A DNA stretch of 64,000 nt from Candidatus Magasanikiibacteriota bacterium (GTDB lineage Bacteria > Patescibacteriota > Patescibacteriia > Magasanikbacterales > UBA922): positions 5,440-69,439 of the forward strand of contig JBAYJP010000006.1 of NCBI GenBank assembly GCA_041665025.1, read 5' to 3'. Below, one piece after another: positions 6,959-50,599 of this stretch. The notes below the pieces were generated by a model that did no database searches, was not told the DNA's origin, and worked only from the letters and a program-made list of their open reading frames with translations. Every line of letters begins with the position of its first letter. Within the stretch, counting starts at the first letter, position 1. The position numbers and the translations under genes are program-made.

Positions 6959-7030
6959 GCGCTCGTCGTTCAACGGATAGGACATTGGCCTGCGAAGCCG
7001 AAAATCCAGGTTCGATTCCTGGCGGGCGCA
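6959..7030 (+). tRNA. tRNA-Arg with a GCG anticodon (unusual for bacteria)
   Basis: Manual fold: acceptor GCGCTCG/CGGGCGC with one G-U pair; anticodon stem TTGGC/GCCGA; loop CTGCGAA with U33 and A37; T-arm CCAGG TTCGATT CCTGG; discriminator A. Confidence 0.65.
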
Positions 7031-7097
7031 CACCTTTGGGGACTAATGTATACATACACACAGACGCATAAATGGTACGTCCCCACAAAATAATACA

Positions 7098-7124
7098 TAA
7101 AAACCCGCCGCGACGGGTTTTTAT
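7098..7124 (+). terminator. Rho-independent terminator after tRNA-Arg
   Basis: AAACCCG CCGCGA CGGGTTTTT. Confidence 0.6.
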
Positions 7125-7221
7125 GTATTATTTTGAAAAATCCGAATAAAAAAATATTGCTTAAACAACAGACAAACTAGAGGATTTGCTAAACAAATTC
7201 CATAGATTCTATATATAAAAT

Positions 7222-34816: not shown

Positions 34817-37800
34817 TCAAAACGGAAACAACTCCGCCGGATGCCAATTTTTTAATCCCTGATGAAAAAACATATCAGCAAAACTATCAGCCGACATGTT
34901 ATTATGAGAAAATATGTAATCGCCTTCTGCATGCACAGCAAAATCCATTCTGTTGAACTGCACCGCATCCAAATTCAATGAACCTCCATCAAAATATATA
35001 CCATTGTCATACCATGATGAATATATTTTATCATATGGCTCATCCCAGCCTATCGAACTGTTTGAAATATTCAACTGGCTATTTTTTGCATATATATTTC
35101 CTCCTGGCCGTCGAGAATTTGATATTTCGACTCCATTTAAAATGACTTCTGAATCTCGCAACCACAATGCTGCGCTCTCCGGCGCGCCTACTATTGGATA
35201 TGATGAAACATTTGGAAATGATCCTCCTCTTATTATATCTACATGATTTAACTGTGATATTGAATTATTAAAATATATTCCTCCAAACCAACTATTATCT
35301 GCTCCGGAAATAATCACAGGAAATTCAACTGTCCCTTGCGCGTTAAGCGTACCATCCACCGTCAATAGGCTATATGGAGTAAACAAAAGCGTTGCGCCAG
35401 GCATAAGAGTAAGTGTACTTGAAGCAGAGACTGTCGCGCTTGAAAAAATAAAAGGTGTTTGAGCTTGTATGGTTGTGTCATAGTCAAATACAACTGAACT
35501 GCCATACATTGCACTGGTTGAATTCCCTATAAATGTATTGCCTGAACTTGAATGAGGAAAATTTCCTGCAAAGACTGCAGGGTATGTATGGGGAAATATA
35601 AAATCAGAAAAAATTGAATTATTCACCATAGCATGTGGAACATCTTTTATATAAACACCCTGGTAACCTCCACTCAAATGTATATTCTCCAATGAAACTT
35701 GTCCGCCATTGCTCCATATATATGCATCATTATCAGACGTACGAGATCCCGCGTCATAACTATTGTGAACACTCACGTGATCTAAATCTAGAATTCCTCC
35801 GTCATTTCGTACAAGCTCCGAAACTGATTGGGATGTAGGAAAAAAGCGATTTCCGCCATAGTACATATCAGCATATTGGGCTTTAAATAAACCTCCGCTT
35901 TGCACGTGTATTCCCTGCCAGTCTCCTGCAGCAGGTTCACCTTCACATGAGGCAAGAGTCATAAATGCTTCACACACCTGTACTGTTTGAGGATCTCTAC
36001 GGGACGTCATAATAATATGATGGTCCTGCGCACCTGAAAAGATTAAAGAACCACTGACACTAAATCCTCCAGCATCAAATATGCTAATAATGTTTGAACC
36101 TTGTGCAAATTCAACTGTGTATCCCGTTGGAATAACTACATTATCAATAATATAAGGACTATGCTCTTTTGAAAATACTATGGTAGAAGTATTGGCAAGC
36201 AGATTATTATAATATAACGTAACATTACTTGGAATGTACCAATCTGTTTTGTTGTCTGACTCGGGACTTCCATATACGTCTCCACAATTATTGCTTCTAA
36301 CTCCATAACGCAGAGATTCACTCGTACGCCAATTCGTTGGCCAATTGCCAGGCAAAGCAGAATTCACGCGTTCCATAGGACGAAATACTCCTATTGATTG
36401 ACCACCAAACCAACCAGCTTGTTGATCTGTTTCATCTACAATATTACTTTCACTATCTTTTAACGTGAGATGCGCGCCGCTATCGGACAATGAAACACCT
36501 GGAGGAAATAAGGAGTTAGACTGTTTGCTTGTGATTACTTTTTCATTGCGCTCGACAAGATAATATCCATGTCCTGCAATACTGCCCGCAAGCGGCATAC
36601 TAAACTCTTCATTTTCATATTGTACCTGTAGGGTCCACCCGGATACATCCATAGGTACATCGCTCGGGTTATACAATTCAATCCATTCATCTTGCGCACA
36701 TTTGTTAATAGATGCCACACCCATCCACGCTATCTCATTTATAACCACTGTCTTTGGCCAGTCAACTGCTACGCTTTGATCTTCCCCACTCCACAAAGAC
36801 TCATTGCCTGCCTTATCATATGCTTTTACGCGCATATAATATGATACATAGCGATCTACGTCTGTCATTTCATAACTCGTACTTGTCGTGTGAGATAGGA
36901 GTTTCTGCCACTCTGAACCTGAACCATTTTTGTATTCAATATCAAAATATGCAATACCAGTCCCCGAGTCAGTACTTGTCCATTCACTGTGCAATGTAGG
37001 AGTAGCAAAATCACTTTGTACAAGCTGGACAATAGGCTGCGTTGGTGGCGTACTATCAAGATTGATAACAATATTTGCTCCGGATATTGGTTTCCCTTCT
37101 CCATCCTCAATATGCAATGAAAATACATTTTCACCTTCTGTCAAAACGACCTCTTTGCGCCATGTTGTGCTTGACGCGTATTCCACTCCGTCTGAACTGC
37201 CATTGATAAAAATCTTTTCAACACTCACTGATTTGTCACCTTCAAATGTAGTTGTTGCAGAATTGGTTATCCACGGCGTTTCAGTTGGGAATGAAATACT
37301 AAACCACGGCTCTTCTTCACCAGATTCTGCATTACTAGATTCCTGTGTAGAATCTGACGAAGAATTCGGCGTAGATGAGCCGCCCCCACCGCCATATGAA
37401 GGTGAAACAAATGGTGAAATAATAGTATGCACTACTTCTTCAACTTTTTCCTGAATAATTTTTATACCATGCACGATATCATCCAATGCTCTCTGGTCTT
37501 TTTCAACTATTGTTTCTGGTTTCCACTCCTCTTCAACTTTTTTATCTGCAATAGCTAGATTCAATCTATATATCTCATTTCCAATTTGTTCATATGTGCT
37601 GCCCGTGTATCTCACAATCATCAATTGTAATCCGTAATTCCCTACAACATCTGGAGTATGAACAATGAAGGAAAAAGACGCTGTTTGACCACTAATAACC
37701 ATAGCTTGGTCCATGAGTGCTGGACGCAAGCTTGTAAGCCAGGTCGCGTGTTTGAACTGTACGTTTTTTTCCACTCCCCCAATTACATTTAGAGAAACCT

Positions 37801-38764
37801 GATCAGACCTGTTCCACGCAGTCTTTCCTGTATTTTTTACACTGATTTTTAGTGCGACATCTTTGCCTGGTTCAGAAGTAATATGTTCTGGCGTATTCAA
37901 AATATCTGCATTATACACAGACAGATTGTTTGCTTCTTCTTTCTTCTCCTCCGGTTTTTGTTCTGGTATATTTTCTATTTTTTCTCCCTCAACGTTTTGT
38001 TGTTCTGAAGAAAAGAGTGAAGAAAAAAAGATTTTTACATTGTTCCAGAGAGAGGGCGACGGAGATTGAGATTGCGATTGAGAATTTTGGATTGGTTGGT
38101 TTTCCTGAACACCTAAATTTTTATTGAGTTCGATAAATTTGGATGGGGAGTAACGGTGAGGGGCGTAGCCGGTGGTGCCGGAGTAACCTTTACCGACGCC
38201 ACCTAAAATATCATCCTGAAAAGCTTTAGCATCTTTTACCTCAAAGTGTAGATGTGCATCATAAATACACAACTTAGCAACATCAGCTATGATATCTCCC
38301 TTCTTCACAATGTCTCCATCTTCTACTTTTATATTTGTTAAATGCCCGTAAAGACTATACACAACAGTAGGATTATTTTCAGTCGATGCGGTAATGATAG
38401 TACCATCGGAAGAAAAGACGTCAGGATTTACAACCTCATGCTTTATGATAACCACGCCTCCCCACCCGTGTGAATCTTCTACCTTTTTTCTAACACCATC
38501 GATTATTTCCACCTTATCACATAGTGCCCAGCGAACGCTTTTAACTACTTCGCCGTTAGCAATCGATTTTACCTGAGTACCCGCATCTACCGCAAAGTCC
38601 TCACCTAAGTGTCCCACATACTTATCTGTATATTTTGCGCCAAATCCGTTAGACAAATAATAATCACTAAGTGGCAATAGCATGCCACTGTCAACAACAG
38701 AAAATACTAAAACTGGAATAAAAACAAATAGACCAACAAAGAAAAATATATCCCTCCTAAACAT
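34817..38764 (-). CDS. Secreted 1315-aa protein: N-terminal TM/signal, M23 (LytM-type) peptidase domain, Ig/FN3-like regions, Lamin-tail domain (LTD) and a beta-helix-like C-terminal region
   Basis: M23 motifs HLGEDF...YGHL...HLHFEV; LTD signature NEIAWMG...EWIELYNPSD..VSGWTL. Confidence 0.7.
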   Translation of the reverse strand: MFRRDIFFFVGLFVFIPVLVFSVVDSGMLLPLSDYYLSNGFGAKYTDKYVGHLGEDFAVDAGTQVKSIANGEVVKSVRWALCDKVEIIDGVRKKVEDSHGWGGVVIIKHEVVNPDVFSSDGTIITASTENNPTVVYSLYGHLTNIKVEDGDIVKKGDIIADVAKLCIYDAHLHFEVKDAKAFQDDILGGVGKGYSGTTGYAPHRYSPSKFIELNKNLGVQENQPIQNSQSQSQSPSPSLWNNVKIFFSSLFSSEQQNVEGEKIENIPEQKPEEKKEEANNLSVYNADILNTPEHITSEPGKDVALKISVKNTGKTAWNRSDQVSLNVIGGVEKNVQFKHATWLTSLRPALMDQAMVISGQTASFSFIVHTPDVVGNYGLQLMIVRYTGSTYEQIGNEIYRLNLAIADKKVEEEWKPETIVEKDQRALDDIVHGIKIIQEKVEEVVHTIISPFVSPSYGGGGGSSTPNSSSDSTQESSNAESGEEEPWFSISFPTETPWITNSATTTFEGDKSVSVEKIFINGSSDGVEYASSTTWRKEVVLTEGENVFSLHIEDGEGKPISGANIVINLDSTPPTQPIVQLVQSDFATPTLHSEWTSTDSGTGIAYFDIEYKNGSGSEWQKLLSHTTSTSYEMTDVDRYVSYYMRVKAYDKAGNESLWSGEDQSVAVDWPKTVVINEIAWMGVASINKCAQDEWIELYNPSDVPMDVSGWTLQVQYENEEFSMPLAGSIAGHGYYLVERNEKVITSKQSNSLFPPGVSLSDSGAHLTLKDSESNIVDETDQQAGWFGGQSIGVFRPMERVNSALPGNWPTNWRTSESLRYGVRSNNCGDVYGSPESDNKTDWYIPSNVTLYYNNLLANTSTIVFSKEHSPYIIDNVVIPTGYTVEFAQGSNIISIFDAGGFSVSGSLIFSGAQDHHIIMTSRRDPQTVQVCEAFMTLASCEGEPAAGDWQGIHVQSGGLFKAQYADMYYGGNRFFPTSQSVSELVRNDGGILDLDHVSVHNSYDAGSRTSDNDAYIWSNGGQVSLENIHLSGGYQGVYIKDVPHAMVNNSIFSDFIFPHTYPAVFAGNFPHSSSGNTFIGNSTSAMYGSSVVFDYDTTIQAQTPFIFSSATVSASSTLTLMPGATLLFTPYSLLTVDGTLNAQGTVEFPVIISGADNSWFGGIYFNNSISQLNHVDIIRGGSFPNVSSYPIVGAPESAALWLRDSEVILNGVEISNSRRPGGNIYAKNSQLNISNSSIGWDEPYDKIYSSWYDNGIYFDGGSLNLDAVQFNRMDFAVHAEGDYIFSHNNMSADSFADMFFHQGLKNWHPAELFPF

Positions 38765-39427: not shown

Positions 39428-40144
39428 TTATAAACGTGGACGATTGTTCCGATCACGATTCCACATGGGTGGATTATATATAATATAACGTTGTATATTA
39501 TGAAACGCCGTTTCATTTCGGATAATATTATCATAAAACGACCGTTGCCATTTGAATTGTGGAAAACCAATTTCGTGGATACGTTTCGACGTGGTCGTTT
39601 TCAATGCGCCGATAATATTTGATAATGATAATATGTTGTATGAACCCGGTGCATGTAGGGACAGGTCTAGACCTGTCCCTACACCACGTTCCATGTCAAT
39701 CATCATATTGAGGTCATTGCCGCGACCTGCCCCTACGGACCCCGCATTATCCAAATCCATTGCAATACCACCGGCATGACCCACCCCTACACCATCGGCA
39801 CAATCCATATCAATATCATTATTCAAATCCATTGTAATATTATTTCCATTGACGACCGTATCGTCACATATTTCCAATATCCCATGCACATGGTTCGGCA
39901 TAACCACAAACCCGTGTGATCGTATATACGAATATTGGTGCGACAACCATTCCCATTGGCGATATAGGACCGTGCCCACACGATTCACGCACATTACACC
40001 ATTATATACACCACCAAAAAATGAAATCCTACCCTCTACACAGATCGTAATAAAATAACACCTATTATTTTTATAATCAAAACCCCGTAAACGATTATTT
40101 TTTCTATTATTCCTCCTATACATATACGCATAGTATACATGCAA
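39428..40144 (-). mobile_element. REP-associated tyrosine transposase (RAYT, IS200/IS605-like Y1/HuH family) carrying an in-frame insertion of about 85 aa
   Basis: YFITICVEGR...VVMPNHVHGIL (HuH) ... FKWQRSFYDNIIRNE (catalytic Tyr helix) ... YIIYNPPMW. The order and spacing match E. coli YafM-type RAYTs, apart from the insert between the HuH motif and the Tyr helix. Confidence 0.75.
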
Positions 40145-40559
40145 AATTCTATGATTTAAATCTATCTAACTTAGACGAACTTAGATAACTTAGGTACTTA
40201 GCAAACTCAAGTTTATCCCCACTCTATCCCCAAAAGCGCTCTTGACTTGACAAAAAGGCTAAAAAGTGGTCTAATAGGTATGTATTTAGGGAAAAATGTC
40301 TCATACCACATACCACACAACAACTCGCTTGTTACGCGGTATGTGTCATGTGACCACGAGGCGAAGCTTTTCGTGGCGCATACACTATGCATAGTGAGCC
40401 CAATACCACTCTGGTATAGGACAAACTTCCGTAAACAAAATGTTCTGTTCTTTCCATTTGTCACACTATTCCTCTGATCAAGGAGTAGTACGACAATACA
40501 ATTAAGTGCGCGAGGCAATTTATCACGTGTCCGCCCAAGGCGGATTTACGTGAGACAAA

Positions 40560-41300
40560 CTCGTCCGTTTTAAAATTTAGAAACCACGTCGTCAACCAGC
40601 AAGAGTGCGATGTGGATATTGAGAAGTAAATTTACTCCTTAGTACCCACATCACATCTCTCGACCGCGAGAAGTTTTTCGGGGGCACTCGCTCCCGACTC
40701 GCGGTCAAGCCGCAAGCGCCGCGTTTCGCGGTAAGGAAAGGGGGACTCATGTCCCACCTGCGGCTCGCGCTGTTCGCCGCGATCGCGGCGCTGGCACTCG
40801 TCCTCTCGGGCTGCGTCGAGCCCGAGGACGAGACGAATGAGTCTCCCGACACGACGCAACAGCCGTCGGGAGATGTGCAGGCGCCCCTCTGCCAGAAGAA
40901 GGCGGACGGGACCTGCCGCGACGACGTCGCCCCCTCCCCGGGCGACGAGATCGTCGGTGACGACACCGACGGGGAGACGGACGAGGACGTCCTCCAGCCG
41001 AACGGCTGCGAGGCGGTGGAGTGGACCGAGATCACGATCGGCCACGACATCGCCCTCTGCCACGCCGAGAACGGCATGGGCAGCGAGGGCGAGTGCGAGT
41101 TCGCCATGTACGAGCAAGATGGGCAGTGCGTCACCGACTGCATGCCCAACTTCTCGGGGCGACCGACGAACGAGATGGAGGCGGTCCCTGGTGGATTCGC
41201 CTACAACCACCCGTTCCTCGGGCGGGTCATCTGCATCATGCAGTGACCCGACCACACCCGACTGAGCTCGTCCGTGGACTGGGATGCGTCGCGCACCGGT
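40560..41300. other. High-GC island 2, about 740 bp, immediately upstream of the RAYT and 3' of the giant gene
   Basis: Abrupt compositional shift. Contains the inverted repeats GACCGCGAG..CTCGCGGTC and GATGTGG..CCACATC. Confidence 0.6.
40749..41246 (+). CDS. Lipoprotein (165 aa) encoded on high-GC island 2
   Basis: Signal peptide with lipobox LVLSGC; a GGGGG RBS; strongly GC-biased third codon positions. Overlapping ORFs in other frames are GC artefacts. Confidence 0.55.
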   Translation: MSHLRLALFAAIAALALVLSGCVEPEDETNESPDTTQQPSGDVQAPLCQKKADGTCRDDVAPSPGDEIVGDDTDGETDEDVLQPNGCEAVEWTEITIGHDIALCHAENGMGSEGECEFAMYEQDGQCVTDCMPNFSGRPTNEMEAVPGGFAYNHPFLGRVICIMQ

Positions 41301-41377: not shown

Positions 41378-44300
41378 TTACGGAATGACAATAATTGCAC
41401 CTTTATATTTTGTAAAATGATAATCATGCATGGTTGAATCATCACATTGATGATCAGTAGTATCATTAAAAAATGCGGTCGGATTGCCATTACCATCTAC
41501 CCCATTACACCACCCCCAATTATCAAGCACCTGAACGCCGGGTTTGAAGATACAGATACCAGTCTCTTCGGTAATTTCACTGCGTTCCATGAGACGAGCG
41601 TATGCTTCGTCTGCGTATGAGAGATTATCACCAAAATATTTTCTCTTTATGGTGTCATTTCTCAAATCACCTACTTCAATATCTGTCGTGTTGCAATAAT
41701 AGGTATGCTCGAATTCAAAATAATTTTCCTGGCACGCACGCGGTGCATCTCCAAAGATTGGATCCTCAATGTTATCATCACAAAAGTAGCCATCCCCAAA
41801 TATCTGGACGCATTCCTCATCTTTTTTACATGTAATGGGAGGCTCGCCCTGAGCCCAGTTACGTTCACGTTCATCTCCTGTACATCTACCTACTGTTTTA
41901 TTACCGTCTGTATCATCACAATAAGGCTTGTGATTCCGATACATGCCCTTTACATCTTTGTTTTGCACGTCCGTGCCGTCGTCCCAATTCACCATCACTC
42001 TGCGTATAGGCATGCGATTATCATCCGCAAACGCAAAGAACCGAGCATTGACCGTAACACTTCCCTGCTGGATAAATGGATCGGGCGTACCTCTTCCGAA
42101 ATCGCTTTTATCTTCATCCCCGTCTTTCCCATCGTCATCATAATCTTTCATTGTATAATTTTTCATGTTAATCGTGATATTGTCTGCTTCTCCTGGAATA
42201 CAATCTTTGTCTCTCCTCGAACATAGGCTCGGGTTGATAGAGAAAATTTGTGGAGGTTTGGTATCGCCAATAAAATCTTGACCTCCTAAATTACTGCTAT
42301 AATCTTCTCCGACATATTCACCTCCTACATAGTCTCCAAGTGTGTCCACTACTGCATCATCTCCAAAAAGATGATTTTGCGACTTAATACTAAAATACTT
42401 CAAAAATAAATCATTCAAACTCAGGTAATACAGATTTGCGTCTTGATATGAAAAATTATCATCCTGTTCTTGTTCTTGCCTATCTACTGCGTGAGTATTT
42501 ATTCCTTTAAGCGTGGCATAACTACCTCCTGTGGTTTTTATTTCTTCACATATAGTTGGAACTCCTCCCAGACGATGGCTATCTGTTTCGTCGCAACTAT
42601 AAGGGAACCCATCGAATACGAGATTGGTGAATGTGTATGAAAGCCAATAAGGATTTCCAATCCCAAGCCATGGATCAAGAGGGCTCGTTCCGCGAAGTGA
42701 GAGAGAAGCATAAGGTTGGAGTTGAGTGGTTTTGAAAATCTGACTAAAAAACCCTGATGACGCTAGATATTCACCGTGTTCCCAGATGCGATCTGTCCAT
42801 GCCTTATTTGTAGTATCTCCAATGTCTCCGCTTTCGTCATATACCTTTACAAATTCATTACAGCTCTCATTCAACTCGACAATAACCGCAAATCGGATGC
42901 CGTGTCCTTCTCCATCATCATTTTCATATCCATTACACCAGCGAGATACATATCCAAGAAATTCACCATTTTTATTAAAGTCAAGGCCAATGGCAATCCA
43001 ACTACCTTCTTTTTTGCCGTCATTTTCATCCTGATGAAGATTAAATTTACATTCAGCCTGCAGAGGATCGGAGTCAGCATTACTGGGTAGACTTACTTCC
43101 TGGCCAGCTATTCCATTCACCAGATCTGTGTTAGGCAAAAACTCAGGCGTTTGCTTTTCAGTATTAGTCAATGGGTAGTATTCATGATATACACCCATAT
43201 ATCTATGCTCTATCTCATTGAGTGTTTGTAAAGCAGGATACCTTTTATACACTTCAAGTATCTTACCGGAAAACTCATATGGACTTGAATCATCATATCC
43301 CTGAAACGACACTAATCCATTTTCATTATCCTTATCCAAAAGATATGTGTACAAGCCTGCGTCCGCAGCACCATCGTCATTAAAAAAATCTATATACCCT
43401 CCATCACTATTACCTCTAATATAATGATATGTTAATGGAACTCTCTCATGAAAGGCAATTTTATCAGGTTCTCTTCCACCTGGGCCTGCAATTCCTCTCA
43501 AACCATTAAAATCAATTCTAAACGCATCTGTCAACAAAGGAACAGGTGCTCCGCCCTCGAGCTTACCTGGATAAGCAACAGGAACAAAATAAATGGCCTT
43601 TATATCTTTTTCTCTTATTTTTTCTTCAAGCGTCGAGCGATATATCTTTGGATAGCTATCGGAAAATGCTAATTTAGTCATCGAAGCTAGTGTCATCGAT
43701 TCTCCTAACACTCTGTCCACGGTTAAAAACGAAGTTTCAACCTTATAATCTATTCCATGCTCTAACTCCATGCCTATAAGAGTCCTGTCTCGAGATGTTT
43801 CATCGCTGTTTTCTATTCCATCGAGGTCACTCATGAAAAAATTCTTGGCATCTGTATCTGGGAGATCTCGAGCTTCTGCAGCCTTATCCCACAAACGCGG
43901 AGGATGCATAAATGTTCCCAGCTCGACAGTATCATACAGCTCAGCATATGTGCCCTCATTTTTTTCAAAAATAGAAGGAGCAAAAATCTCAGGTACGAGT
44001 AATGATGCATCATCTTTGGCCACTTGGCTCTCCAAACTTGTGATATAATCTACACTATTAAAAGCTAGATAGGGATATAATTCTCCTCCTCTTGGATTCA
44101 TGTCCATTCGCAGTACTGTCGCGTTTGTGCCTATTTTCCTCCACGCCCATATATTCATAAGTGCAATAGGAGTGTTTTCTTCATATGGTCCTCGCCATGC
44201 ATCCCTATTGAGATCATCAGCCCAACACATAATATATCTATACATCCCCGTATGACCACAACTTTCTCCGTCATCAAGATTGAGAGGACAAATGCCGCCT

Positions 44301-47300
44301 GCATTTGTTTTAACATTGGGACAATTTTCAGCTAGGCCAGCACTACCCCATGGCAAATTTTCTGAATCCATAAACCGGGTGTAATCTCTATTCATCACTA
44401 TCTGGTGGGCCGGGGGTGCATCTGGATTTGTCTTTAGAGTAAAATTTCCATCTGCAGGTCCTGTTCCTCCGGGCTCAAAACTATATGTACCACCAAAATC
44501 TACTTCTGAATACGCACCTCCGACATTATTACTCAAACTGCAATAATATTCGCCGCCATTGCTTTCACTATCGAGTGTGGGAAAATATCCGGCATCCTGG
44601 TAGGCATTGTAGTTGTCAACAGTAGAAGCAGATGATTGTATAGGAAACCAGGTAAGGCACGCATACTGTTCATCCATACGAACCATGCTCCCGGCTGGCC
44701 CAAGTGGTCGGCTCAGATCATATTCAAGACATAGCCCTTTAAGCCCAAAATATGATGCCTGTTGTTTGATCATACTACATGTTCCTGTGCTACCGCATTC
44801 ATCATTGGTCATACAAGGGAACCCATTTATTGCGCCATCTCCTACACAAACTCCCCCGGTACTTACATGTGCCGGCGTGTCTCGTACTGGCCAATAATCA
44901 ATAGTGCCGTCTTTATATTCTATTTTTCTATATTCACACGAACATTCTTCAACTATAGAGCCATCCTCTTTTACTACTCGTTGACATACATTCGCTTGCG
45001 AATATATTGGTTTTTTTGTCGAGTAATCCCAACGATAATACTGATTGTCCTCCCCTGACGTTTTTTTGTCTCTTTGTTCCGGCTGTTGAGTTAGCGCCAT
45101 TTGAGTAGAAAAAGGACTGCCTTGCTCCGGGTATGCTTTACATATGCCTGTTTCCAAATAAATAGTCATCTCTTCAACTGAATTAACCTCATCGGGAAAC
45201 ATTCCACCGAGTGGATATGTACACCGTTGTTTATAACATCTACCCCCATCATCAAAACCGCACGCATCGCCGTCTTCTTTTTTAAATTTGCTGTCGCTAT
45301 CCACCTCACTGCAGCCTACGTCTGGAAAATCTGCGTCCCCGTCGCCATCTTTATCTGCCATAAAAAATGAATCATTCATCAGATAGGTCAGGTAGACTTC
45401 GTTATCCAAGACAACAGACTTGTAATTTCCAATATTATACTTGTTGAATAAAGAATATCCCGAATATTCAAAACTACCCCAACCTACATTGCGAATGACA
45501 TATTCTTCCTCTGATAACAATGTGTTGTTAAGTGATATGTCTGCCCAACCATCATCGGCGCACGCCCCGTTGCTATTGAGTTTATTACATGTTCCGTAGT
45601 CTTGACATATCCGCTGAGGCACATTATTTTCATCATATACGGTCATCGATGTCCGGCACGCCAACCACTCACTACACTCACGATCACGTTCTACTTTGAG
45701 AAGTACATTGGTATCACGCGTTCCTGCGGTGGCAATAGGAACAAGCGCGTACTTTTTGCTCATACTATCTGCATACGTCAGTACGCTATTATATATCTTG
45801 TTTGGATTTTCAGTCATGTTGAAGAGCACGCATCCTTCTTTTTGGCTCGCTTTGCTATCGCATTCTCCGGTACGTTCAAACAAGCGATCATTATTTATCA
45901 CATAATAAGGTTCACCATCCATATTCCCCGACGTATCTGCTGGATCTATGAGCTCAGTACACCCACTGTATTCTGTTTCGCACATCCCCACATACCCTTG
46001 GTATCCAGGGGTGCCCTGGGACAAAAGTCCATATTCTCCGCTTCCCGAGAGCTGATTTGGATAGCACGCTGTGAGGCCTTTTTTGCATGTTTCGCCTGAA
46101 ACGGTACACTCATTGTCACTGCTACAATAGGTATTAGTACCTCCGCCTGCTTCAGTTTGGCACTGTCCAACGTTATCCATAAACCAGCCACTATATTGTA
46201 TACCACTTATTTCGACATTATCGCGATATGTGCATGATTTAGCACCAATAACAGCCGGATCTTTGAAATAAGTGAGATTATTTCCATTTCTATACTCAGA
46301 ACACCCGACCAAATCTTCACTGCATAATGTCTGGTCATAGTGATCCGGATTATTGAGGACCATAGTATCTGAAAAACTATACGCGGTGTTACTCTGCGCG
46401 TCTGGATTTGTCTGCTGTTGTAATCCTACTTTCTCGCATCCCACATGTTCATCGCTACATACAAATTCAGAACGATGAGTAAGGTAAATCGTATTGGAAT
46501 CAGCAGGAACAACAATAGTAGACGTCACTACATACAAATCGTCAGTATTACCCGTACAAAGACCTACCATGCCAGTTCTCTCTATACACCCACTGGGGAG
46601 ATACACCTTATTGTGAAATTCAGTTGCTCCTGGATCATCGCTATAACTGGGTACGACAACCGCAGTATCTATATAACAACTTGTTTCTCCTTTTCGTATC
46701 GTACAACTATATGTTTCAAAATTAGTAGCGTCAGAATATATTTTTGCCTCGCATTTCGATGCATCACCTGGATACGTAGGACTTGTCGTACCCCGTTTAC
46801 ATAATACATTGTACGCATTCATTTGCATGGCATCTTCACCTGATACAGTATTGTATGTATCTACCATCGCCTTACACCCAACTGCCTCGACACGGCACAA
46901 ACGGTCAAAACCAGACAAAGCAACAGGCTCATTATCTCGTGTCGTGTATGCACGACAGCCCAATGCTTCGCCAGGAAATGCGTCAAGCGGTGTAGAATCG
47001 CATAAAAGTGGCACATCATACCCTTCGCGTGTTTTCCATGAATTTTTTATCAGATAAAGATGGTCATCATTTTCCTGTCCAATACGAACAATGCGGACAT
47101 TATCAATAAAGTACGAGGCAGATTCATTGGTGTCCAAAAACAATGACGCCGTGCCACTCGCCATACCCGTAAACTGTACAGGGCCCAATGTATATTCCTG
47201 CCAATCATTGCCAATAGGCGCTTGTATCGAAGTATTGGTAAGCGGATCAAGCGTAAATGTTCCTTTTGTTGCTCCGTCTTGTCTAAACGAAATGTCCAAT

Positions 47301-50300
47301 GCCTGAGTCTGTCCGCGCGCCCAGAAACTCAACTCATACCATGCACCCGACTGCATACGCTCGGCATTAAATGTATATGAGGCGTCACCGGTAATGCGCA
47401 AAGAATGAAGGCCGACTTGCGTTGCCTCTGCTTCAATAGAAGTATTGCCTGGCCACCCTTCCTTTGCCCGTGTCAACGCATCTGTATCATCCCCATCCGG
47501 TTCAAAATTCATGGAATGAACTTCAATATTATTCCCCTGATTGCCAATATATGAACGGCATCCATTTGCTGTCGCAGGGCATGAATCTGCTTCGCTTTTT
47601 ATGGAATAATATACGCATGCGCCTTGCGCGGGATTACTCGGATCTGTTTGATATGTTCCGCCATTATAACAACGATTGCACACGCTATTCACACTATCCC
47701 ATGTACCACCTTTCTGCGCACATAACGTATTTTTTGCAACCCCTCCGACAGACCCTGATCCGGATAAATATTCATCCTCGTACAAATTTGAAATGCTTTT
47801 ACGCAATGGACGGCAGTCCAAAGACACTGACACGGTATCATTTTTCAAACGATAATATACGCCTCCGGAAGCATCATAATACGCGCGGCAGTCAGGACTT
47901 GTATTAGAAGCATATGGATTTTGCAAATGCAGATTATATTGTGCTGCATTACAAATTGCATAATTATTTTCCAAGGAAGTTTTACTATCATCGGCGTATG
48001 CCGGAGAGTTACTCGCAAACTCAGCAACCGCACCACTTGCCAGACCAAGTCCTGAAATATAAAGTGCCTGAGCCGCGTCAATTTTTGCAAGCGTGTGTTT
48101 TTGCAATATAAATCCCTGACTTGCAGAACCTTCCCACGTATAAAATACTTTTGCATTTTCACCTTCGGGTCGTTCACAATATTTCAAATTACTATAATAT
48201 TCTAGTGACTCGCCTCCGCCGGTGAGCGCATCAATATTGGTAAATTCATCACACCCTACATACTGAGCTGCGCACGTCTGACCGCCTGAAGGACCTGTAG
48301 GAATAAAATACATGGGAAATTGAGATTGTTCGAAATTGGATTCTTCTTGTTTAAACGTGTCATATCCAATACACTGCTCATTGCATAAATTTTCTGTGGT
48401 TGCAATGCCCGGAATTTCTATACCCCCTTGCGCCGGAGTATACCCTTTGCATCCCACTTCGTCTTGTACACACACTTGCGCAAAATTACTGCAACTTTCC
48501 GGTTTATCTTCAAATCCAACAAGATCCGCGCGAGTCTGCGGCCAATCTATGGCAGGCGTACCAATATTTTTATCATAACAACCCAGATACTCTGGAGCTT
48601 TTTTCAATCGAATTGATTCTCCATTCAAAGCATCTTTGAAAACACTACATCCTTCTGCGTTACCGGGACATGAAGCGTAGGAAGATAATTTGTCATTAAA
48701 ATAAAGCATTTGCTCTCTGCCAAGAAGTTTATCCTCGATATTTACTTGGCCACTATTCTTCCATGTACCATCTTCATTTTGTTCACTACTATATGCACGG
48801 CATCCTTTTGATTCCACACTGCATGCGCCATAGTCGAGGGTGCGTGAAAGATACGATGATACAGAGCCCGAGACTGAATTGACATATGTTTTGCATGTGT
48901 TGTAATACGCCGGACAACTGTCTCCCGGCATATGCCATACATTTTTTTCTTTTGTACAATATCCATACGAAATGCACTGGCCTTTGTCGTCTTCTTTGAG
49001 ACATGTTGAAAAATCTACGCACTCCTGCGTTCGCAGGGCTGTACCTTCTTGTTGCAATTGGGGACCCCACACGCGCGCTTCACAGCGAGCCTCAGGAGCT
49101 TTGATAATCCAATTGGGATCAATGAGGTGACAATATGGGAAAGCAGCACTTGGTCTTCCTGAGGGATCGCACTCGGTAAATCCGTCTACGACCTTCTTTA
49201 GTGTCACGGGGTTATCTGGATCAGATTTAAGTGCAGCAATTTCAAACCCAAGCGGTAAAATACGTGCTTTTCTAAGTTTTTGAATATTTGAATAACAATA
49301 TGCCTGACTATAGCAATAGGGCAAATTCGTATTATCTACATCACGACCTGGCGGTATGAGTAGCCAATTTTCATGAAGCTGTCCACTCTTCATTGCTTCA
49401 TCTATGGTAAGAGGATCCCCTGTTTGTGCCAAATTGACTGCTTCTACAAGCTTACCATCCATAACACAATTATTGAGTCCTGGCGCCGGCGTTTGCGGAC
49501 ATGCACTGAATTCAGTTACCAAATCATAGGTGTCGAGGCTGCGCTGAGGAACCGTTGCAATAAGATATGAAAAAGCTTTTTCTGCCGCCTGACGATTGTA
49601 ACTAATATTTGAAGCAAAAAAATCAGTAACTCCTGAGGATTCGCTATCACCACCTGAAGGAAATAATCCCCCATCCATTATATTTTGTAAAAGAGAAGAC
49701 ACGAGCGTATTAGCAAAGACTGACAGCGCCATGGGCAAAATCTGTAAAGATCCTGAACCATAGATACCTGCGATTTGACCGGCCGTCATGTCTCCTTGAT
49801 TTTTTGCAGTCACTGACTTTGTTTCTTCTTGGATTACTTGGGCTGGCGTTCGAATCTTACCTGAGATAATGTCAGCAACTGGTTTGAAGCCATTTCCCTC
49901 TTGACGCGCTTGAGTTGCGTCTATCTGCGATTGGGTCACCACACGATCCAACTTCCCCATCAGTCCAAGCGCCGCTCCAAAATCTGAGTCTGAAACACTT
50001 AGAGAGGCAGTGAAACGCTCGGAAATAGCGTCCTTACTTCCGTACATATCATCAACTTGCTCCCAATTACTCGTGAATTCAGACCAATTACAACGAGGAG
50101 CTGGACCGCCTTCGTTTCCATATTCTGAATCATATATTCTCTGCAATCCAACCTGTAGCCCCACTTGCACCCGAAGATCCGGTGGTTTACACAAATCAAG
50201 TCCGAGAGGCTCCCCAAACTGCTGAATGGCTCCCGCAGCACTATCCAATGCAGTATTTCCAAGATATGAACCAAAACCATCTTGAAATGCGAGTGCGCTT

Positions 50301-50599
50301 TGACCCTTCCCACCGGAGGCAACATACTTGGCAGAATCATAAGCCAACTTACGCATAAAATATGATGCGCCATTGACCAGAGCGCCGAGAGCTGCACCCA
50401 CAAGAGTATTTTGAACTTGTTCCCACGTCCATTTCCCGGAAAAAGCTGCAGTAATCGCGGCATCCATCTGCGCGTGTGCTCTTTGTGGCAACGCAAAAAA
50501 ACCGAGCAATTGCACTCCCAAAAATAATGATATAACAAAAGAGATAGACAATTTACGGGAACGATTGGAGGAAAACCACATACATCTTTTAAGTAACAA
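41378..50599 (-). CDS. Giant (3073 aa) secreted Cys-rich protein with a signal peptide and a galactose-binding/CBM-like domain among many Cys-rich modules
   Basis: Uninterrupted 9.2-kb ORF. The N-terminal hydrophobic segment FVISLFLGVQLLGFFALPQRAHA is signal-like. The CBM-like segment is (...WYELSFWARGQ...FIDNVRIV). Cysteines are frequent and patterned. Confidence 0.75.
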   Translation of the reverse strand: MLLKRCMWFSSNRSRKLSISFVISLFLGVQLLGFFALPQRAHAQMDAAITAAFSGKWTWEQVQNTLVGAALGALVNGASYFMRKLAYDSAKYVASGGKGQSALAFQDGFGSYLGNTALDSAAGAIQQFGEPLGLDLCKPPDLRVQVGLQVGLQRIYDSEYGNEGGPAPRCNWSEFTSNWEQVDDMYGSKDAISERFTASLSVSDSDFGAALGLMGKLDRVVTQSQIDATQARQEGNGFKPVADIISGKIRTPAQVIQEETKSVTAKNQGDMTAGQIAGIYGSGSLQILPMALSVFANTLVSSLLQNIMDGGLFPSGGDSESSGVTDFFASNISYNRQAAEKAFSYLIATVPQRSLDTYDLVTEFSACPQTPAPGLNNCVMDGKLVEAVNLAQTGDPLTIDEAMKSGQLHENWLLIPPGRDVDNTNLPYCYSQAYCYSNIQKLRKARILPLGFEIAALKSDPDNPVTLKKVVDGFTECDPSGRPSAAFPYCHLIDPNWIIKAPEARCEARVWGPQLQQEGTALRTQECVDFSTCLKEDDKGQCISYGYCTKEKNVWHMPGDSCPAYYNTCKTYVNSVSGSVSSYLSRTLDYGACSVESKGCRAYSSEQNEDGTWKNSGQVNIEDKLLGREQMLYFNDKLSSYASCPGNAEGCSVFKDALNGESIRLKKAPEYLGCYDKNIGTPAIDWPQTRADLVGFEDKPESCSNFAQVCVQDEVGCKGYTPAQGGIEIPGIATTENLCNEQCIGYDTFKQEESNFEQSQFPMYFIPTGPSGGQTCAAQYVGCDEFTNIDALTGGGESLEYYSNLKYCERPEGENAKVFYTWEGSASQGFILQKHTLAKIDAAQALYISGLGLASGAVAEFASNSPAYADDSKTSLENNYAICNAAQYNLHLQNPYASNTSPDCRAYYDASGGVYYRLKNDTVSVSLDCRPLRKSISNLYEDEYLSGSGSVGGVAKNTLCAQKGGTWDSVNSVCNRCYNGGTYQTDPSNPAQGACVYYSIKSEADSCPATANGCRSYIGNQGNNIEVHSMNFEPDGDDTDALTRAKEGWPGNTSIEAEATQVGLHSLRITGDASYTFNAERMQSGAWYELSFWARGQTQALDISFRQDGATKGTFTLDPLTNTSIQAPIGNDWQEYTLGPVQFTGMASGTASLFLDTNESASYFIDNVRIVRIGQENDDHLYLIKNSWKTREGYDVPLLCDSTPLDAFPGEALGCRAYTTRDNEPVALSGFDRLCRVEAVGCKAMVDTYNTVSGEDAMQMNAYNVLCKRGTTSPTYPGDASKCEAKIYSDATNFETYSCTIRKGETSCYIDTAVVVPSYSDDPGATEFHNKVYLPSGCIERTGMVGLCTGNTDDLYVVTSTIVVPADSNTIYLTHRSEFVCSDEHVGCEKVGLQQQTNPDAQSNTAYSFSDTMVLNNPDHYDQTLCSEDLVGCSEYRNGNNLTYFKDPAVIGAKSCTYRDNVEISGIQYSGWFMDNVGQCQTEAGGGTNTYCSSDNECTVSGETCKKGLTACYPNQLSGSGEYGLLSQGTPGYQGYVGMCETEYSGCTELIDPADTSGNMDGEPYYVINNDRLFERTGECDSKASQKEGCVLFNMTENPNKIYNSVLTYADSMSKKYALVPIATAGTRDTNVLLKVERDRECSEWLACRTSMTVYDENNVPQRICQDYGTCNKLNSNGACADDGWADISLNNTLLSEEEYVIRNVGWGSFEYSGYSLFNKYNIGNYKSVVLDNEVYLTYLMNDSFFMADKDGDGDADFPDVGCSEVDSDSKFKKEDGDACGFDDGGRCYKQRCTYPLGGMFPDEVNSVEEMTIYLETGICKAYPEQGSPFSTQMALTQQPEQRDKKTSGEDNQYYRWDYSTKKPIYSQANVCQRVVKEDGSIVEECSCEYRKIEYKDGTIDYWPVRDTPAHVSTGGVCVGDGAINGFPCMTNDECGSTGTCSMIKQQASYFGLKGLCLEYDLSRPLGPAGSMVRMDEQYACLTWFPIQSSASTVDNYNAYQDAGYFPTLDSESNGGEYYCSLSNNVGGAYSEVDFGGTYSFEPGGTGPADGNFTLKTNPDAPPAHQIVMNRDYTRFMDSENLPWGSAGLAENCPNVKTNAGGICPLNLDDGESCGHTGMYRYIMCWADDLNRDAWRGPYEENTPIALMNIWAWRKIGTNATVLRMDMNPRGGELYPYLAFNSVDYITSLESQVAKDDASLLVPEIFAPSIFEKNEGTYAELYDTVELGTFMHPPRLWDKAAEARDLPDTDAKNFFMSDLDGIENSDETSRDRTLIGMELEHGIDYKVETSFLTVDRVLGESMTLASMTKLAFSDSYPKIYRSTLEEKIREKDIKAIYFVPVAYPGKLEGGAPVPLLTDAFRIDFNGLRGIAGPGGREPDKIAFHERVPLTYHYIRGNSDGGYIDFFNDDGAADAGLYTYLLDKDNENGLVSFQGYDDSSPYEFSGKILEVYKRYPALQTLNEIEHRYMGVYHEYYPLTNTEKQTPEFLPNTDLVNGIAGQEVSLPSNADSDPLQAECKFNLHQDENDGKKEGSWIAIGLDFNKNGEFLGYVSRWCNGYENDDGEGHGIRFAVIVELNESCNEFVKVYDESGDIGDTTNKAWTDRIWEHGEYLASSGFFSQIFKTTQLQPYASLSLRGTSPLDPWLGIGNPYWLSYTFTNLVFDGFPYSCDETDSHRLGGVPTICEEIKTTGGSYATLKGINTHAVDRQEQEQDDNFSYQDANLYYLSLNDLFLKYFSIKSQNHLFGDDAVVDTLGDYVGGEYVGEDYSSNLGGQDFIGDTKPPQIFSINPSLCSRRDKDCIPGEADNITINMKNYTMKDYDDDGKDGDEDKSDFGRGTPDPFIQQGSVTVNARFFAFADDNRMPIRRVMVNWDDGTDVQNKDVKGMYRNHKPYCDDTDGNKTVGRCTGDERERNWAQGEPPITCKKDEECVQIFGDGYFCDDNIEDPIFGDAPRACQENYFEFEHTYYCNTTDIEVGDLRNDTIKRKYFGDNLSYADEAYARLMERSEITEETGICIFKPGVQVLDNWGWCNGVDGNGNPTAFFNDTTDHQCDDSTMHDYHFTKYKGAIIVIP

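What the first reader, a model, noticed from the sequence alone, without database searches (positions are those of the whole stretch)
39428..40144. RAYT transposase carrying a perfect 30-bp GTAG...CTAC palindrome and an insert of about 85 aa inside its own reading frame
The protein has the RAYT hallmarks in canonical order: an HuH motif (MPNHVHGIL), then the catalytic-Tyr helix (WQRSFYDNIIRNE), then YIIYNP. Between the HuH motif and the Tyr helix there are about 125 residues instead of the roughly 35 seen in E. coli YafM. The extra stretch is D/N/G/M-rich low complexity with internal repeats (MDLNNDIDMD, AMDLDNAGSVGAG, MIDMERGVGTG). At 39653-39682 it contains TGTAGGGACAGGTCTAGACCTGTCCCTACA, a perfect palindrome that begins with GTAG, the tetranucleotide classic REPs use as the RAYT recognition site. 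This looks like a REP-like element inserted into its own transposase without breaking the frame. RAYTs are mainly documented in Proteobacteria, so one in this CPR-like background, coexisting with a large REP-like repertoire, would be new.
Basis: partly seen in the sequence, partly recalled or inferred. Interest (0 to 1): 0.8.

Follow-up and report, generated by a model that had tools for sequence, protein, structure and literature searches.

The report
RAYT gene with in-frame REP hairpin
This is a REP-associated tyrosine transposase gene from a Magasanikbacteria (CPR) genome that carries its own GTAG...CTAC palindrome in frame inside a surface loop, an arrangement already described in 2018 for this RAYT subclass, so it is a new example rather than a new phenomenon.

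Summary
ORF 39428..40144(-), probably starting at the ATG at 40123, encodes an intact HUH/Y1 enzyme. It sits in frame in a ~77-aa variable loop between the HuH motif and helix alphaC.

The arrangement is already published. Quentin et al. 2018 (PMC6006769) describe TnpA_REP subclass 2.4 (Bertels RAYT group 4). Its marks are NH[IFV]H, WQ and YIxNNP motifs, a variable beta3-alphaC insertion, "double-foot" GT[AG]G...C[TC]AC REPs, and REPs inserted in frame in the tnpA gene. This gene fits all but one tested marks.

In 78 related loci, footed hairpins reach 6.1/kb in the variable region against 0.13/kb in the flanks. Only the two stop-free frames are used.

- The catalytic Tyr is in YIIYNP, not WQRSFYD.
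- The 64-kb window holds no other REP of this family.
- Group 4 RAYTs are not mainly proteobacterial.
- CPR homologues are common in databases.

Verdict: new member of a known kind, low interest. The loop also holds two degenerate 5' half-REPs. A syntenic ortholog shares the palindrome, which rules out misassembly.

The parts
39428..40123 (-). RAYT / TnpA_REP coding sequence, 231 aa from the ATG. The open frame extends to a TTG at 40144. The NCBI annotation of the source MAG calls only the last 157 aa.
   Evidence: ORF list. Homologue N-termini. P0001 is 100% identical over 157 aa. NF047646 E 1e-14.
39884..39895 (-). HuH motif N77-H78-V79-H80 (metal ligands), at the end of strand beta3.
   Evidence: H78 and H80 are invariant in alignment A1. 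The motif aligns with E. coli PEHMH. Coordinates.
39635..39868 (-). Variable loop, residues 86-163, between beta3 and helix alphaC. It is made of an A/T-rich D/N/M-coding spacer plus three REP-derived modules.
   Evidence: Alignment A1 shows this as the only large indel region. pLDDT is below 50 for residues 94-156. GC rises to 0.46-0.50 here.
39767..39838 (-). Module A (ITMDLNNDIDMDCADGVGVGHAGG). It contains a degenerate 5' half-REP, GTAGGGGTGGGTC, at 39778-39790.
   Evidence: The ortholog L081 has an intact 5' arm, GTAGGGACAGGTCGCGA, at the aligned place.
39707..39766 (-). Module B (IAMDLDNAGSVGAGRGNDLN). It contains a 5' half-REP, GTAGGGGCAGGTC, at 39724-39736 (1 mismatch), followed by a remnant GACCTC. 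The module is absent from the ortholog. Its start repeats the start of module A at a 72-nt spacing.
   Evidence: (repeat D2, 91% over 23 nt).
39653..39706 (-). Module C (MMIDMERGVGTGLDLSLH), which carries the intact REP.
39654..39683 (.). Perfect 30-bp palindrome TGTAGGGACAGGTCTAGACCTGTCCCTACA. This is a 'double-foot' REP (GTAG...CTAC) read in frame as VGTGLDLSL.
   Evidence: The same 28-nt core is found in other RAYT genes (L001, L006, L081) and in 48 metagenome stretches.
39575..39634 (-). Helix alphaC (ILSLSNIIGALKTTTSKRIH), the conserved restart of the core after the loop.
   Evidence: Conserved block in A1. Helix 167-184 in the model.
39518..39550 (-). WQRSFYDNIIR (W192-R202). This is the counterpart of the E. 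coli W94/Q95/E100/H101/R104 segment implicated in GTAG recognition. It is not the catalytic Tyr helix.
   Evidence: Profile alignment to 4ER8. Residue roles from PMC6006769.
39470..39487 (-). Y motif Y213-I-I-Y-N217-P218. Y213 is the predicted catalytic nucleophile and N217 the predicted third metal ligand.
   Evidence: Aligns with E. coli Y115...N119-P120. Y213, N217 and P218 are invariant in A1.

Best explanation
The gene encodes a REP-associated tyrosine transposase (RAYT / TnpA_REP) of subclass 2.4 (RAYT group 4). By homology it is a single-domain HUH/Y1 enzyme. Such enzymes bind a single-stranded DNA hairpin with a 5' GTAG foot, then cut and rejoin the strand through a 5'-phosphotyrosine intermediate.

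Its cognate REP is a 'double-foot' palindrome, GTAGGGACAGGTC-TA-GACCTGTCCCTAC. This REP has been inserted into the part of the gene that codes for the loop between strand beta3 (HuH) and helix alphaC. The loop tolerates extra residues. Two of the three reading frames of the palindrome are stop-free, so copies in those frames survive as a disordered peptide (here VGTGLDLSL).

The loop also holds two 5' half-REPs with A/T-rich spacers. They are products of earlier partial duplication or insertion followed by decay, and together they stretch the loop to about 77 aa.

Shown here:
- the anatomy of the gene and loop;
- family membership;
- the family-wide co-location of REPs with this loop;
- the frame filter;
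- intact catalytic residues;
- synteny with an ortholog.

Inferred:
- enzymatic activity;
- that the RAYT itself put the REP there;
- that the insert is functionally neutral.
For: Family membership:
- NF047646 REP_Tyr_transpos is the top hit, at E 1e-14.
- With residues 90-159 removed in silico, PF01797 scores 24.3 bits against a GA threshold of 23, in one stretch from HuH to Y. NF047646 then scores 62.5 bits in one stretch.
- The AF2 core has pLDDT above 90. Foldseek matches ISDra2, IS608 and IS200 TnpA and 4ER8 at E 2e-6 to 2e-4.
- The motifs NHVH, WQ and YIIYNP fit the subclass 2.4 signature NH[IFV]H / WQ / YIxNNP.

Prior description:
- PMC6006769 reports double-foot REPs and REPs inserted in frame within subclass 2.4 genes between HuH and Y.

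My own survey of 78 GTDB loci:
- 79 footed hairpins lie in 13.0 kb of variable region (6.1/kb). The flanks hold 147 in 1.12 Mb (0.13/kb), and the rest of the gene holds 4.
- Frame use is GTA-GGG 25, xGT-AGG 8 and TAG 0.
- The internal hairpin matches the REPs that flank the same gene in L018, L033, L061, L051, L005, L012, L030 and L078.
- Among 19 distinct hairpins the foot is invariant and 8 of 13 stem pairs show double changes.

The REP as an independent dispersed element:
- 33 of 48 metagenome stretches with the exact palindrome have no RAYT nearby.

Ortholog:
- L081 is syntenic and shares an identical 31-nt palindrome block.

Insert:
- It is predicted to be disordered.
Against: - The window has no flanking or other extragenic REP of this family in 64 kb. 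Most subclass 2.4 genes have REPs within 1 kb (PMC6006769).
- Full-length scores are below the curated cut-offs: PF01797 18.9 against 23, and NF047646 54.7 against 80.
- No group 4 RAYT has been tested biochemically. Published assays cover groups 2 and 3 only.
- The 28-nt core is 100% identical in RAYT genes whose proteins are only 38-49% identical to the window protein (L001, L006). Simple neutral residence does not explain this unless there is re-insertion or selection on the DNA.
- My hairpin detector requires pairing and a foot near the stem end. Counts are therefore lower bounds, and the covariation set is ascertained for pairing.
Confidence: 0.85

Rival explanations
1. The internal REP is not a neutral passenger but a selected cis-acting site. 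One version is that the RAYT binds the hairpin in its own gene or mRNA and so regulates its own expression. Another is that a 'home' copy of the REP is kept inside the gene, so that enzyme and substrate are always inherited or transferred together.
For: - About 72% of 78 family loci keep at least one detectable footed hairpin in this loop, mostly with perfect stems.
- The 28-nt core is identical across RAYTs that are 38-49% identical in protein, in both CPR and Bacteroidota hosts.
- Several CPR loci, the 64-kb window and L081 (20 kb) show the REP only inside the gene.
- Within the window, one copy is perfect while the neighbouring half-copies have decayed.
Against: - 22 of 78 loci have no detectable hairpin in the loop, and some family members have almost no loop (P0020, L037).
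- Position, copy number and frame vary freely.
- Identity can equally be maintained by repeated re-insertion from an extragenic REP pool, and such a pool exists.
- Only 10-64 kb per genome could be inspected, so 'gene-only' REPs are not proven.
- There are no expression or binding data.
Confidence: 0.1
2. The insert is ordinary low-complexity expansion by replication slippage in a tolerant loop. The palindrome is a by-product unrelated to REP elements.
For: - The loop contains partial repeats at 72-nt spacing.
- Homologues show tandem repeats of single hairpin arms (P0022, P0119, L113), which slippage could produce.
Against: - The same 28-nt palindrome occurs as a stand-alone element in intergenic DNA and in other genes.
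- In other genomes the internal hairpin equals the REPs flanking the gene.
- The GTAG/CTAC foot is invariant while the inner stem covaries.
- TRF finds no tandem array in the loop.
Confidence: 0.03
3. The gene is a decaying pseudogene or an assembly artefact. The deposited annotation calls only the C-terminal 157 aa.
For: - NCBI calls a 157-aa hypothetical protein starting at MPNHVHG (P0001).
- The full-length Pfam score is below threshold.
- The loop is unusually long. By the same measure it is 72 aa against a median of about 43 in the 78 loci.
Against: - The frame is open over 231-238 codons.
- Every column that is invariant in the 28-sequence alignment is kept.
- The N-terminal half is 72% identical to the ortholog and lies in the same frame.
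- The ortholog with the same palindrome was assembled independently at least four times (L081-L084) and also appears in L094 and L115.
Confidence: 0.02

Closest known systems
TnpA_REP subclass 2.4 of Quentin, Siguier, Chandler & Fichant 2018 (BMC Genomics 19:475), equal to RAYT group 4 of Bertels et al. 2017
   Same: - NH[IFV]H, WQ and YIxNNP-type motifs.
- No C-terminal tail domain.
- Variable-length insertion between beta3 and alphaC.
- 'Double-foot' REP with 5' GT[AG]G and 3' C[TC]AC.
- REP copies inserted in frame inside the tnpA gene between HuH and Y.
- Short DNA repeats in the insertion.
   Different: - The host is a Candidatus Magasanikbacteria (CPR/Patescibacteria) MAG. That survey used complete genomes and names Cyanobacteria, Bacteroidetes and 'various phyla'.
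- No flanking REPs within 1 kb, and none in 64 kb.
- The loop is at the long end of the family range.
- The Y motif reads YIIYNP.
E. coli TnpA_REP / RayT (YafM), PDB 4ER8 (RAYT group 2, subclass 2.2)
   Same: - HUH/Y1 fold.
- HuH, W-Q...R and Y...N-P motifs in the same order.
- GTAG-footed hairpin substrate.
- Single-copy, chromosomal, vertically inherited gene.
   Different: - E. coli has 33 residues from HuH to W, against 112 here.
- E. coli REPs are bulged, single-foot and extragenic, and they flank the gene as a REPtron.
- Sequence similarity is weak: the profile E-value is 2e-4.
IS200/IS605 TnpA (IS608, ISDra2; subclass 1.1)
   Same: The same fold (best Foldseek hits) and the same ssDNA hairpin-guided cut-and-rejoin chemistry.
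   Different: - The IS enzymes have DH[VI]H and Y...Q motifs and are about 150 aa.
- They are multicopy and are bounded by subterminal hairpins that move the gene itself.
- Here the motifs are NHVH and Y...N-P, there is one copy in the window, and no IS ends or tnpB are present.
In-frame palindromic elements in coding genes: Rickettsia palindromic elements, and intragenic GTAG/CGTC REPs (Di Nocera et al. 2013, PMC3733652)
   Same: Small palindromic repeats survive inside ORFs when they preserve the frame and fall in permissive loops. Here the same REP is also seen inside other long ORFs in metagenome contigs.
   Different: Here the host gene is the element's own presumed mobilising enzyme, and the insertion site recurs across the whole enzyme subclass.

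Membership tests
TnpA_REP subclass 2.4 / RAYT group 4 | HuH motif NH[IFV]H | tested here: met
   N77-H-V-H80. Signature taken from Table 1 of PMC6006769.
TnpA_REP subclass 2.4 / RAYT group 4 | Conserved WQ upstream of the Y motif | tested here: met
   W192-Q193. W is invariant and Q at least 90% conserved in A1. They align with E. coli W94-Q95.
TnpA_REP subclass 2.4 / RAYT group 4 | Y motif YIxNNP | tested here: inconclusive
   The motif here is YIIYNP. Y, N217 and P218 are kept, but the fourth position is Y instead of N. Close homologues read YIINNP, YIIQNP, YVIYNP and YIIYNP.
TnpA_REP subclass 2.4 / RAYT group 4 | Variable-length, variable-sequence insertion between beta3 and alphaC | tested here: met
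   Residues 86-163. It is the only large indel region in A1. The equivalent region spans 10-107 aa in 78 loci. pLDDT is below 50.
TnpA_REP subclass 2.4 / RAYT group 4 | Cognate REP with a 5' GT[AG]G foot, including the 'double-foot' type GT[AG]G...C[TC]AC | tested here: met
   GTAGGGACAGGTC TA GACCTGTCCCTAC at 39655-39682.
TnpA_REP subclass 2.4 / RAYT group 4 | REP inserted within the tnpA gene, between HuH and Y, without breaking the frame | tested here: met
   The palindrome is read as VGTGLDLSL in the open frame. The same holds in 56 of 78 related loci.
TnpA_REP subclass 2.4 / RAYT group 4 | REP copies flanking the gene within about 1 kb (REPtron-like); true of 'the large majority' of members | tested here: not met
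   No other GTAGGGACAGGTC-type sequence (up to 2 mismatches) and no double-foot hairpin with a stem of 8 or more anywhere else in the 64-kb window. The ortholog locus L081 also has none in 20 kb.
TnpA_REP subclass 2.4 / RAYT group 4 | No conserved C-terminal tail domain; median length about 194 aa | tested here: met
   The protein ends 13 residues after the Y motif. It is 231 aa, of which about 77 are loop.
TnpA_REP subclass 2.4 / RAYT group 4 | Assignment by the authors' subclass HMM or phylogeny; 8-aa insertion at the end of alphaB | not testable with these tools
   The subclass HMMs are not available here. As indirect support, tblastn relatives include Planktothrix, Nostoc, Bacteroidota and Chloroflexota genes with the same architecture.
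Pfam PF01797 Y1_Tnp | Score at or above the gathering threshold (23 bits) | tested here: inconclusive
   Full length scores 18.9 bits, on the C-terminal half only. With the loop removed in silico it scores 24.3 bits, with one stretch spanning HuH to Y.
NCBIfam NF047646 REP-associated tyrosine transposase (equivalog) | Score at or above the curated cut-off (80 bits) | tested here: not met
   54.7 bits full length and 62.5 bits without the loop. It is by far the best family, but below the equivalog cut-off.
HUH/Y1 endonuclease fold | The fold seen in IS200/IS605 TnpA and TnpA_REP, with HuH on a strand and Tyr on a C-terminal helix | tested here: met
   Core pLDDT is above 90 in the AF2 model. 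Foldseek hits are 2XMA, 2VJU, 2F4F and 4ER8, probability 1.00, TM (target-normalised) 0.59-0.71.
IS200/IS605 transposase (subclass 1.1) | DH[VI]H and Y...Q motifs; gene bounded by subterminal hairpins; multicopy | tested here: not met
   The motifs are NHVH and Y...N-P. There is a single copy in the window and no terminal hairpins flank the gene.
RAYT (any group) | Sequence-specific binding and cleavage of REP single-stranded DNA | not testable with these tools
   Biochemistry exists only for groups 2 and 3 (PMC3333891, PMC3479197, PMC8266576).

The most novel reading that the evidence does not exclude
In small CPR genomes the only copy of the REP may be the one inside the RAYT gene. It would then be kept perfect by selection on the DNA or RNA hairpin rather than on the peptide. 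In that reading the internal REP is the enzyme's obligatory cis partner. It could be an autoregulatory site. It could be a 'seed' that travels with the gene between phyla, since the same 28-nt core occurs in CPR and Bacteroidota. The arrays of half-REPs in the loop would then be footprints of the enzyme cutting and rejoining its own gene.
Probability: 0.12. Interest if true: 0.55.

Novelty: new member of a known kind. Interest (0 to 1): 0.25.

Why it matters
It matters little as a discovery. The arrangement was published in 2018 for exactly this RAYT subclass.

The instance does add three modest points:
- Group 4 RAYTs with in-frame REPs are common in Patescibacteria. These are tiny genomes, whereas the published survey linked non-IS tnpA_Y1 genes to large genomes.
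- In several CPR loci, including this 64-kb window, no extragenic REP is visible near the gene. This raises the question of what such a RAYT acts on.
- The deposited annotation truncates the gene to a 157-aa hypothetical protein, because the insert splits the domain and pushes HMM scores below threshold. That is a practical warning for annotating this family.

The open question is why REPs accumulate in this one loop of their own enzyme. It is still unanswered experimentally, because no group 4 RAYT has been characterised.

Tried and rejected
- phmmer of the protein against PDB sequences found nothing. A profile of 28 homologues was needed to reach 4ER8.
- Rfam (gathering threshold) and ARAGORN found only six tRNAs in the window and nothing near the gene, so the 40145-40600 spacer is not a known RNA.
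- TRF found no tandem array in the loop. The three modules are too diverged.
- My first scan for double-foot hairpins in the window used a regex anchored at the stem end and missed even the known palindrome. It was discarded and redone. The same limitation hid the L081 palindrome, because its stem extends 3 nt beyond the foot. Hairpin counts are therefore lower bounds.
- I considered whether the high-GC island next to the gene is cargo or part of a mobile unit with the RAYT. I found no repeats or REPs bounding it, and the ortholog has an unrelated sequence in the same place. I left this as a side observation.
- I considered a misassembly or pseudogene and rejected it.
- Papers mentioning both RAYT or REPIN and Patescibacteria or CPR: none relevant in the held library.
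Full report
**1. What is in the sequence**

The minus strand of 39428-40144 is one open frame of 238 codons from a TTG. The ATG at 40123 gives MYRRNNRKNNRL..., 231 aa, which matches the N-termini of the closest homologues. I use this numbering throughout.

The palindrome is not a chance feature:
- The window holds only three perfect stems of 15 bp or more. The other two are A/T-flanked terminator-like hairpins.
- The segment folds as ssDNA at -18.2 kcal/mol, z = -5.75 against shuffles.

The window is 40% GC. The top protein hit, P0001, is 100% identical and is named as a hypothetical protein of a Candidatus Magasanikbacteria MAG (WCW16_05205). It is annotated only from the internal Met of MPNHVHG, at 157 aa.

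**2. What the protein is**

Full-length HMM scores are weak because the insert splits the domain:
- PF01797 scores 18.9 bits against a GA threshold of 23, on the C-terminal half only.
- NCBIfam NF047646 'REP-associated tyrosine transposase' scores 54.7 bits, E 1e-14, in two stretches. Its cut-off is 80.

After removing residues 90-159 in silico:
- PF01797 scores 24.3 bits in one stretch from HuH to Y.
- NF047646 scores 62.5 bits over profile positions 6-131 of 146.

Structure prediction agrees with this:
- An AlphaFold2 model built on 28 homologues has a confident core, with pLDDT mostly above 90.
- Residues 94-156 form a low-confidence segment with pLDDT below 50.
- Foldseek places the core with ISDra2, IS608 and IS200 TnpA and with E. 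coli TnpA_REP (4ER8), at E 2e-6 to 2e-4.

A profile alignment to 4ER8 maps the residues as follows:
- N77-H78-V79-H80 corresponds to E. coli H59-M60-H61.
- W192-Q193...D198-N199...R202 corresponds to W94-Q95...E100-H101...R104. PMC6006769 links this segment to GTAG recognition.
- Y213...N217-P218 corresponds to the catalytic Y115...N119-P120.

The catalytic tyrosine is therefore in RYIIYNP. Every column that is invariant across the 28-sequence alignment is kept in the window protein, so the enzyme looks intact.

**3. The insert**

- From H80 to W192 is 112 residues, against 33 in E. coli (H61 to W94). The excess is about 79 residues.
- Against the shortest close relative (P0020, 163 aa) the excess is about 60.

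Read on the coding strand, the loop has an A/T-rich D/N-coding lead followed by three modules:
- Module A (39767-39838) ends in GTAGGGGTGGGTC.
- Module B (39707-39766) contains GTAGGGGCAGGTC plus a GACCTC remnant.
- Module C (39653-39706) carries the perfect REP, read as VGTGLDLSL.

The starts of modules A and B repeat at a 72-nt spacing, 91% identical over 23 nt.

The syntenic ortholog is P0002 at L081, where the order is giant 3091-aa gene, GC-rich island, RAYT. It compares as follows:
- It has an identical 31-nt block around the palindrome.
- It has an intact 5' half-REP where module A lies.
- It has no module B.

So the window's loop grew by partial duplication and its older half-copies have drifted. 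The ortholog was assembled independently at least four times (L081-L084). Misassembly is therefore excluded.

**4. The family picture**

The search for homologous proteins returned 1806 relatives. At the same place in the alignment they carry one of two kinds of peptide:
- VGTGRDLSLQ or VGTGLDLSLP;
- CRDRSRPVPT or GRDRSRPVPT.

These are the two stop-free reading frames of one and the same palindrome. The third frame begins with TAG. Others carry tandem repeats of single hairpin arms, for example P0022, P0039, P0072, P0099 and P0113/116/119.

I fetched 80 loci from GTDB genomes. Hosts were Bacteroidota, Chloroflexota, Cyanobacteria, several CPR lineages and others. In the 78 loci that could be analysed I scanned for GT[AG]G / C[TC]AC-footed hairpins. 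The counts were:

| Region | Hairpins | Sequence scanned | Density |
|---|---|---|---|
| Variable region | 79 | 13.0 kb | 6.1/kb |
| Rest of the gene | 4 | not given | not given |
| Flanks | 147 | 1.12 Mb | 0.13/kb |

- 56 of the 78 loci have at least one hairpin in the variable region.
- Frame use is 25 (GTA-GGG), 8 (xGT-AGG) and 0 (TAG).
- In many genomes the internal hairpin equals the REPs that flank the same gene (L018, L033, L061, L051, L005, L012, L030, L078).
- Across 19 distinct internal hairpins the GTAG/CTAC foot is invariant, and 8 of 13 stem pairs show changes on both sides.

Two caveats apply. The hairpins were selected for pairing, so the percentage paired is not independent evidence. 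My foot test also misses palindromes that extend 2 nt or more beyond the foot, so the counts are lower bounds.

**5. Is the palindrome an element in its own right?**

The exact 28-nt core occurs in 48 stretches of the JGI metagenome collection, once per stretch. Their contexts are:
- 10 lie inside RAYT genes.
- 5 lie beside partial RAYT matches.
- 33 have no RAYT in the stretch. Most of these are intergenic, and about nine lie inside long ORFs of other genes.

So it is a genuine dispersed REP, but a low-copy one.

In the window itself, no other copy with up to 2 mismatches exists in 64 kb. With 3 mismatches the only additional related hit is module A. No other double-foot hairpin with a stem of 8 or more is present. 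The other palindromes in the window are terminator-like.

**6. Comparison with the literature**

Quentin, Siguier, Chandler and Fichant (BMC Genomics 2018; PMC6006769) define TnpA_REP subclass 2.4, which equals Bertels' RAYT group 4. Its features are:
- motifs NH[IFV]H, WQ and YIxNNP;
- median length of 194 aa;
- no tail domain;
- 'double foot' REPs with 5' GT[AG]G and 3' C[TC]AC.

They also name, as 'a remarkable and unique feature', REP sequences inserted within the tnpA_REP genes between HuH and Y without disrupting the frame. [quoted passage not shown]

Other relevant papers:
- Bertels et al. 2017 (PMC5581495) note that group 4 is rare in Proteobacteria and common in Cyanobacteria, Chlorobia and Caldilineae.
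- Di Nocera et al. 2013 (PMC3733652) describe GTAG REPs inside other genes.
- Biochemistry exists only for groups 2 and 3.
- I found no paper in the held library that links RAYTs with CPR/Patescibacteria. JGI already labels several of these proteins 'REP element-mobilizing transposase RayT'.

**7. Mechanism**

- *Shown here:* anatomy, family assignment, intact catalytic residues, a disordered loop, the frame filter, and the co-identity of internal and flanking REPs in relatives.
- *From established knowledge of HUH/Y1 enzymes and E. coli and Marinomonas TnpA_REP:* the enzyme binds a single-stranded hairpin with a GTAG foot. It cuts at a nearby CT or CA through a 5'-phosphotyrosine and can rejoin strands.
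- *Inferred:* REPs mobilised by the enzyme, or copied locally, land in the gene. Only copies in the tolerant beta3-alphaC loop, in one of the two stop-free frames, survive. Partial duplications of arms and later decay then build a hypervariable loop.

The main alternative is that the internal hairpin is itself selected, either as an autoregulatory site or as a guaranteed co-inherited substrate. It is not excluded. In its favour:
- The core is identical in RAYTs that are only 38-49% identical in protein.
- Several CPR loci show the REP only in the gene.

Against it:
- 22 of 78 loci lack a detectable hairpin.
- Copy number and position vary.
- Only 10-64 kb per genome could be examined.

**8. 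Verdict**

It is wrong on novelty, on the catalytic Tyr, on taxonomy and on the surrounding REP repertoire.
- This is a new member of a known kind, in a CPR host. Interest is low (0.25).
- The most novel reading still open is an internal REP acting as a selected cis partner in REP-poor CPR genomes. I put it at about 0.12 probability.

Noticed in passing
window 40600-41300 (ORF 40749..41246 +); L081 8900-9500: A 650-bp island of 60-71% GC sits in a 40% GC genome, between the giant gene and the RAYT. It encodes a lipoprotein-like ORF with a signal peptide, an LVLSGC lipobox, an acidic low-complexity region and a Cys-rich C-terminus. It has no Pfam hit. The syntenic locus of the ortholog genome has a 65-72% GC island in the same place, with a different lipoprotein-like ORF (…FIFSGC…) and no detectable sequence similarity. 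The position is conserved, the sequence is unrelated, and I have no explanation.
   Followed up: partly
window 40166-40193: A 10-nt tandem repeat, CTAACTTAGA x2.9, lies directly upstream of the RAYT open frame. A weak promoter-like site is at 40160-40132 on the minus strand. Its function is unknown.
   Followed up: no
window 39428-39898 (P0001): The deposited annotation of the source MAG calls only the C-terminal 157 aa, from the Met of MPNHVHG, as a hypothetical protein. The N-terminal half of the domain is in the same open frame and is conserved, so the annotated start is very probably wrong.
   Followed up: yes
window 41378-50599 (-) and 34817-38764 (-): Very large ORFs of 3073 aa and 1315 aa flank the locus. 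The 3073-aa gene is syntenic with a 3091-aa gene that has no Pfam hit in the ortholog genome (L081 1-8737).
   Followed up: no
L085 7960-8070, L092 60-170, L111 3155-3265: REP-in-REP nesting. The exact 28-nt palindrome sits in the middle of another GTAGGGAC...GTCCCTAC hairpin, inside a larger palindromic composite flanked by A and T runs. This suggests that REPs of this family insert into one another.
   Followed up: no
L088, L099, L108, L114, L120, L095/L123, L105/L127 (palindrome positions as): The same 28-nt palindrome lies within long stop-free frames (262-575 codons) that have no RAYT similarity. These look like in-frame REP insertions in other genes. The host genes were not identified.
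   Followed up: no
L113 1725-1800; proteins P0022, P0113, P0116, P0119: Single hairpin arms are repeated in tandem inside RAYT genes. Examples are the 3' arm ACCTGTCCCTAC x3 in L113, VGAGS x4 followed by EPAPT x4 in P0119, and VGTGRDAAS x3 in P0022. The unit boundaries fall at the GTAG/CTAC foot and at the loop apex. This is compatible with slippage or with enzyme-mediated cutting at the foot.
   Followed up: partly
proteins P0080 and P0084 (N-terminal part): Some homologues carry additional REP-derived peptides (VGTARVGTARVGTAR..., VGAGRDLPV...VGAGHDQSLQ) at a second site early in the protein, between the first strand and the following elements. The beta3-alphaC loop is therefore not the only tolerated site.
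   Followed up: no
window 7086-7135: A 50-nt perfect hairpin with a 22-bp stem lies just downstream of tRNA-Arg (6959-7031). It is terminator-like, and it is the longest palindrome in the window.
   Followed up: no
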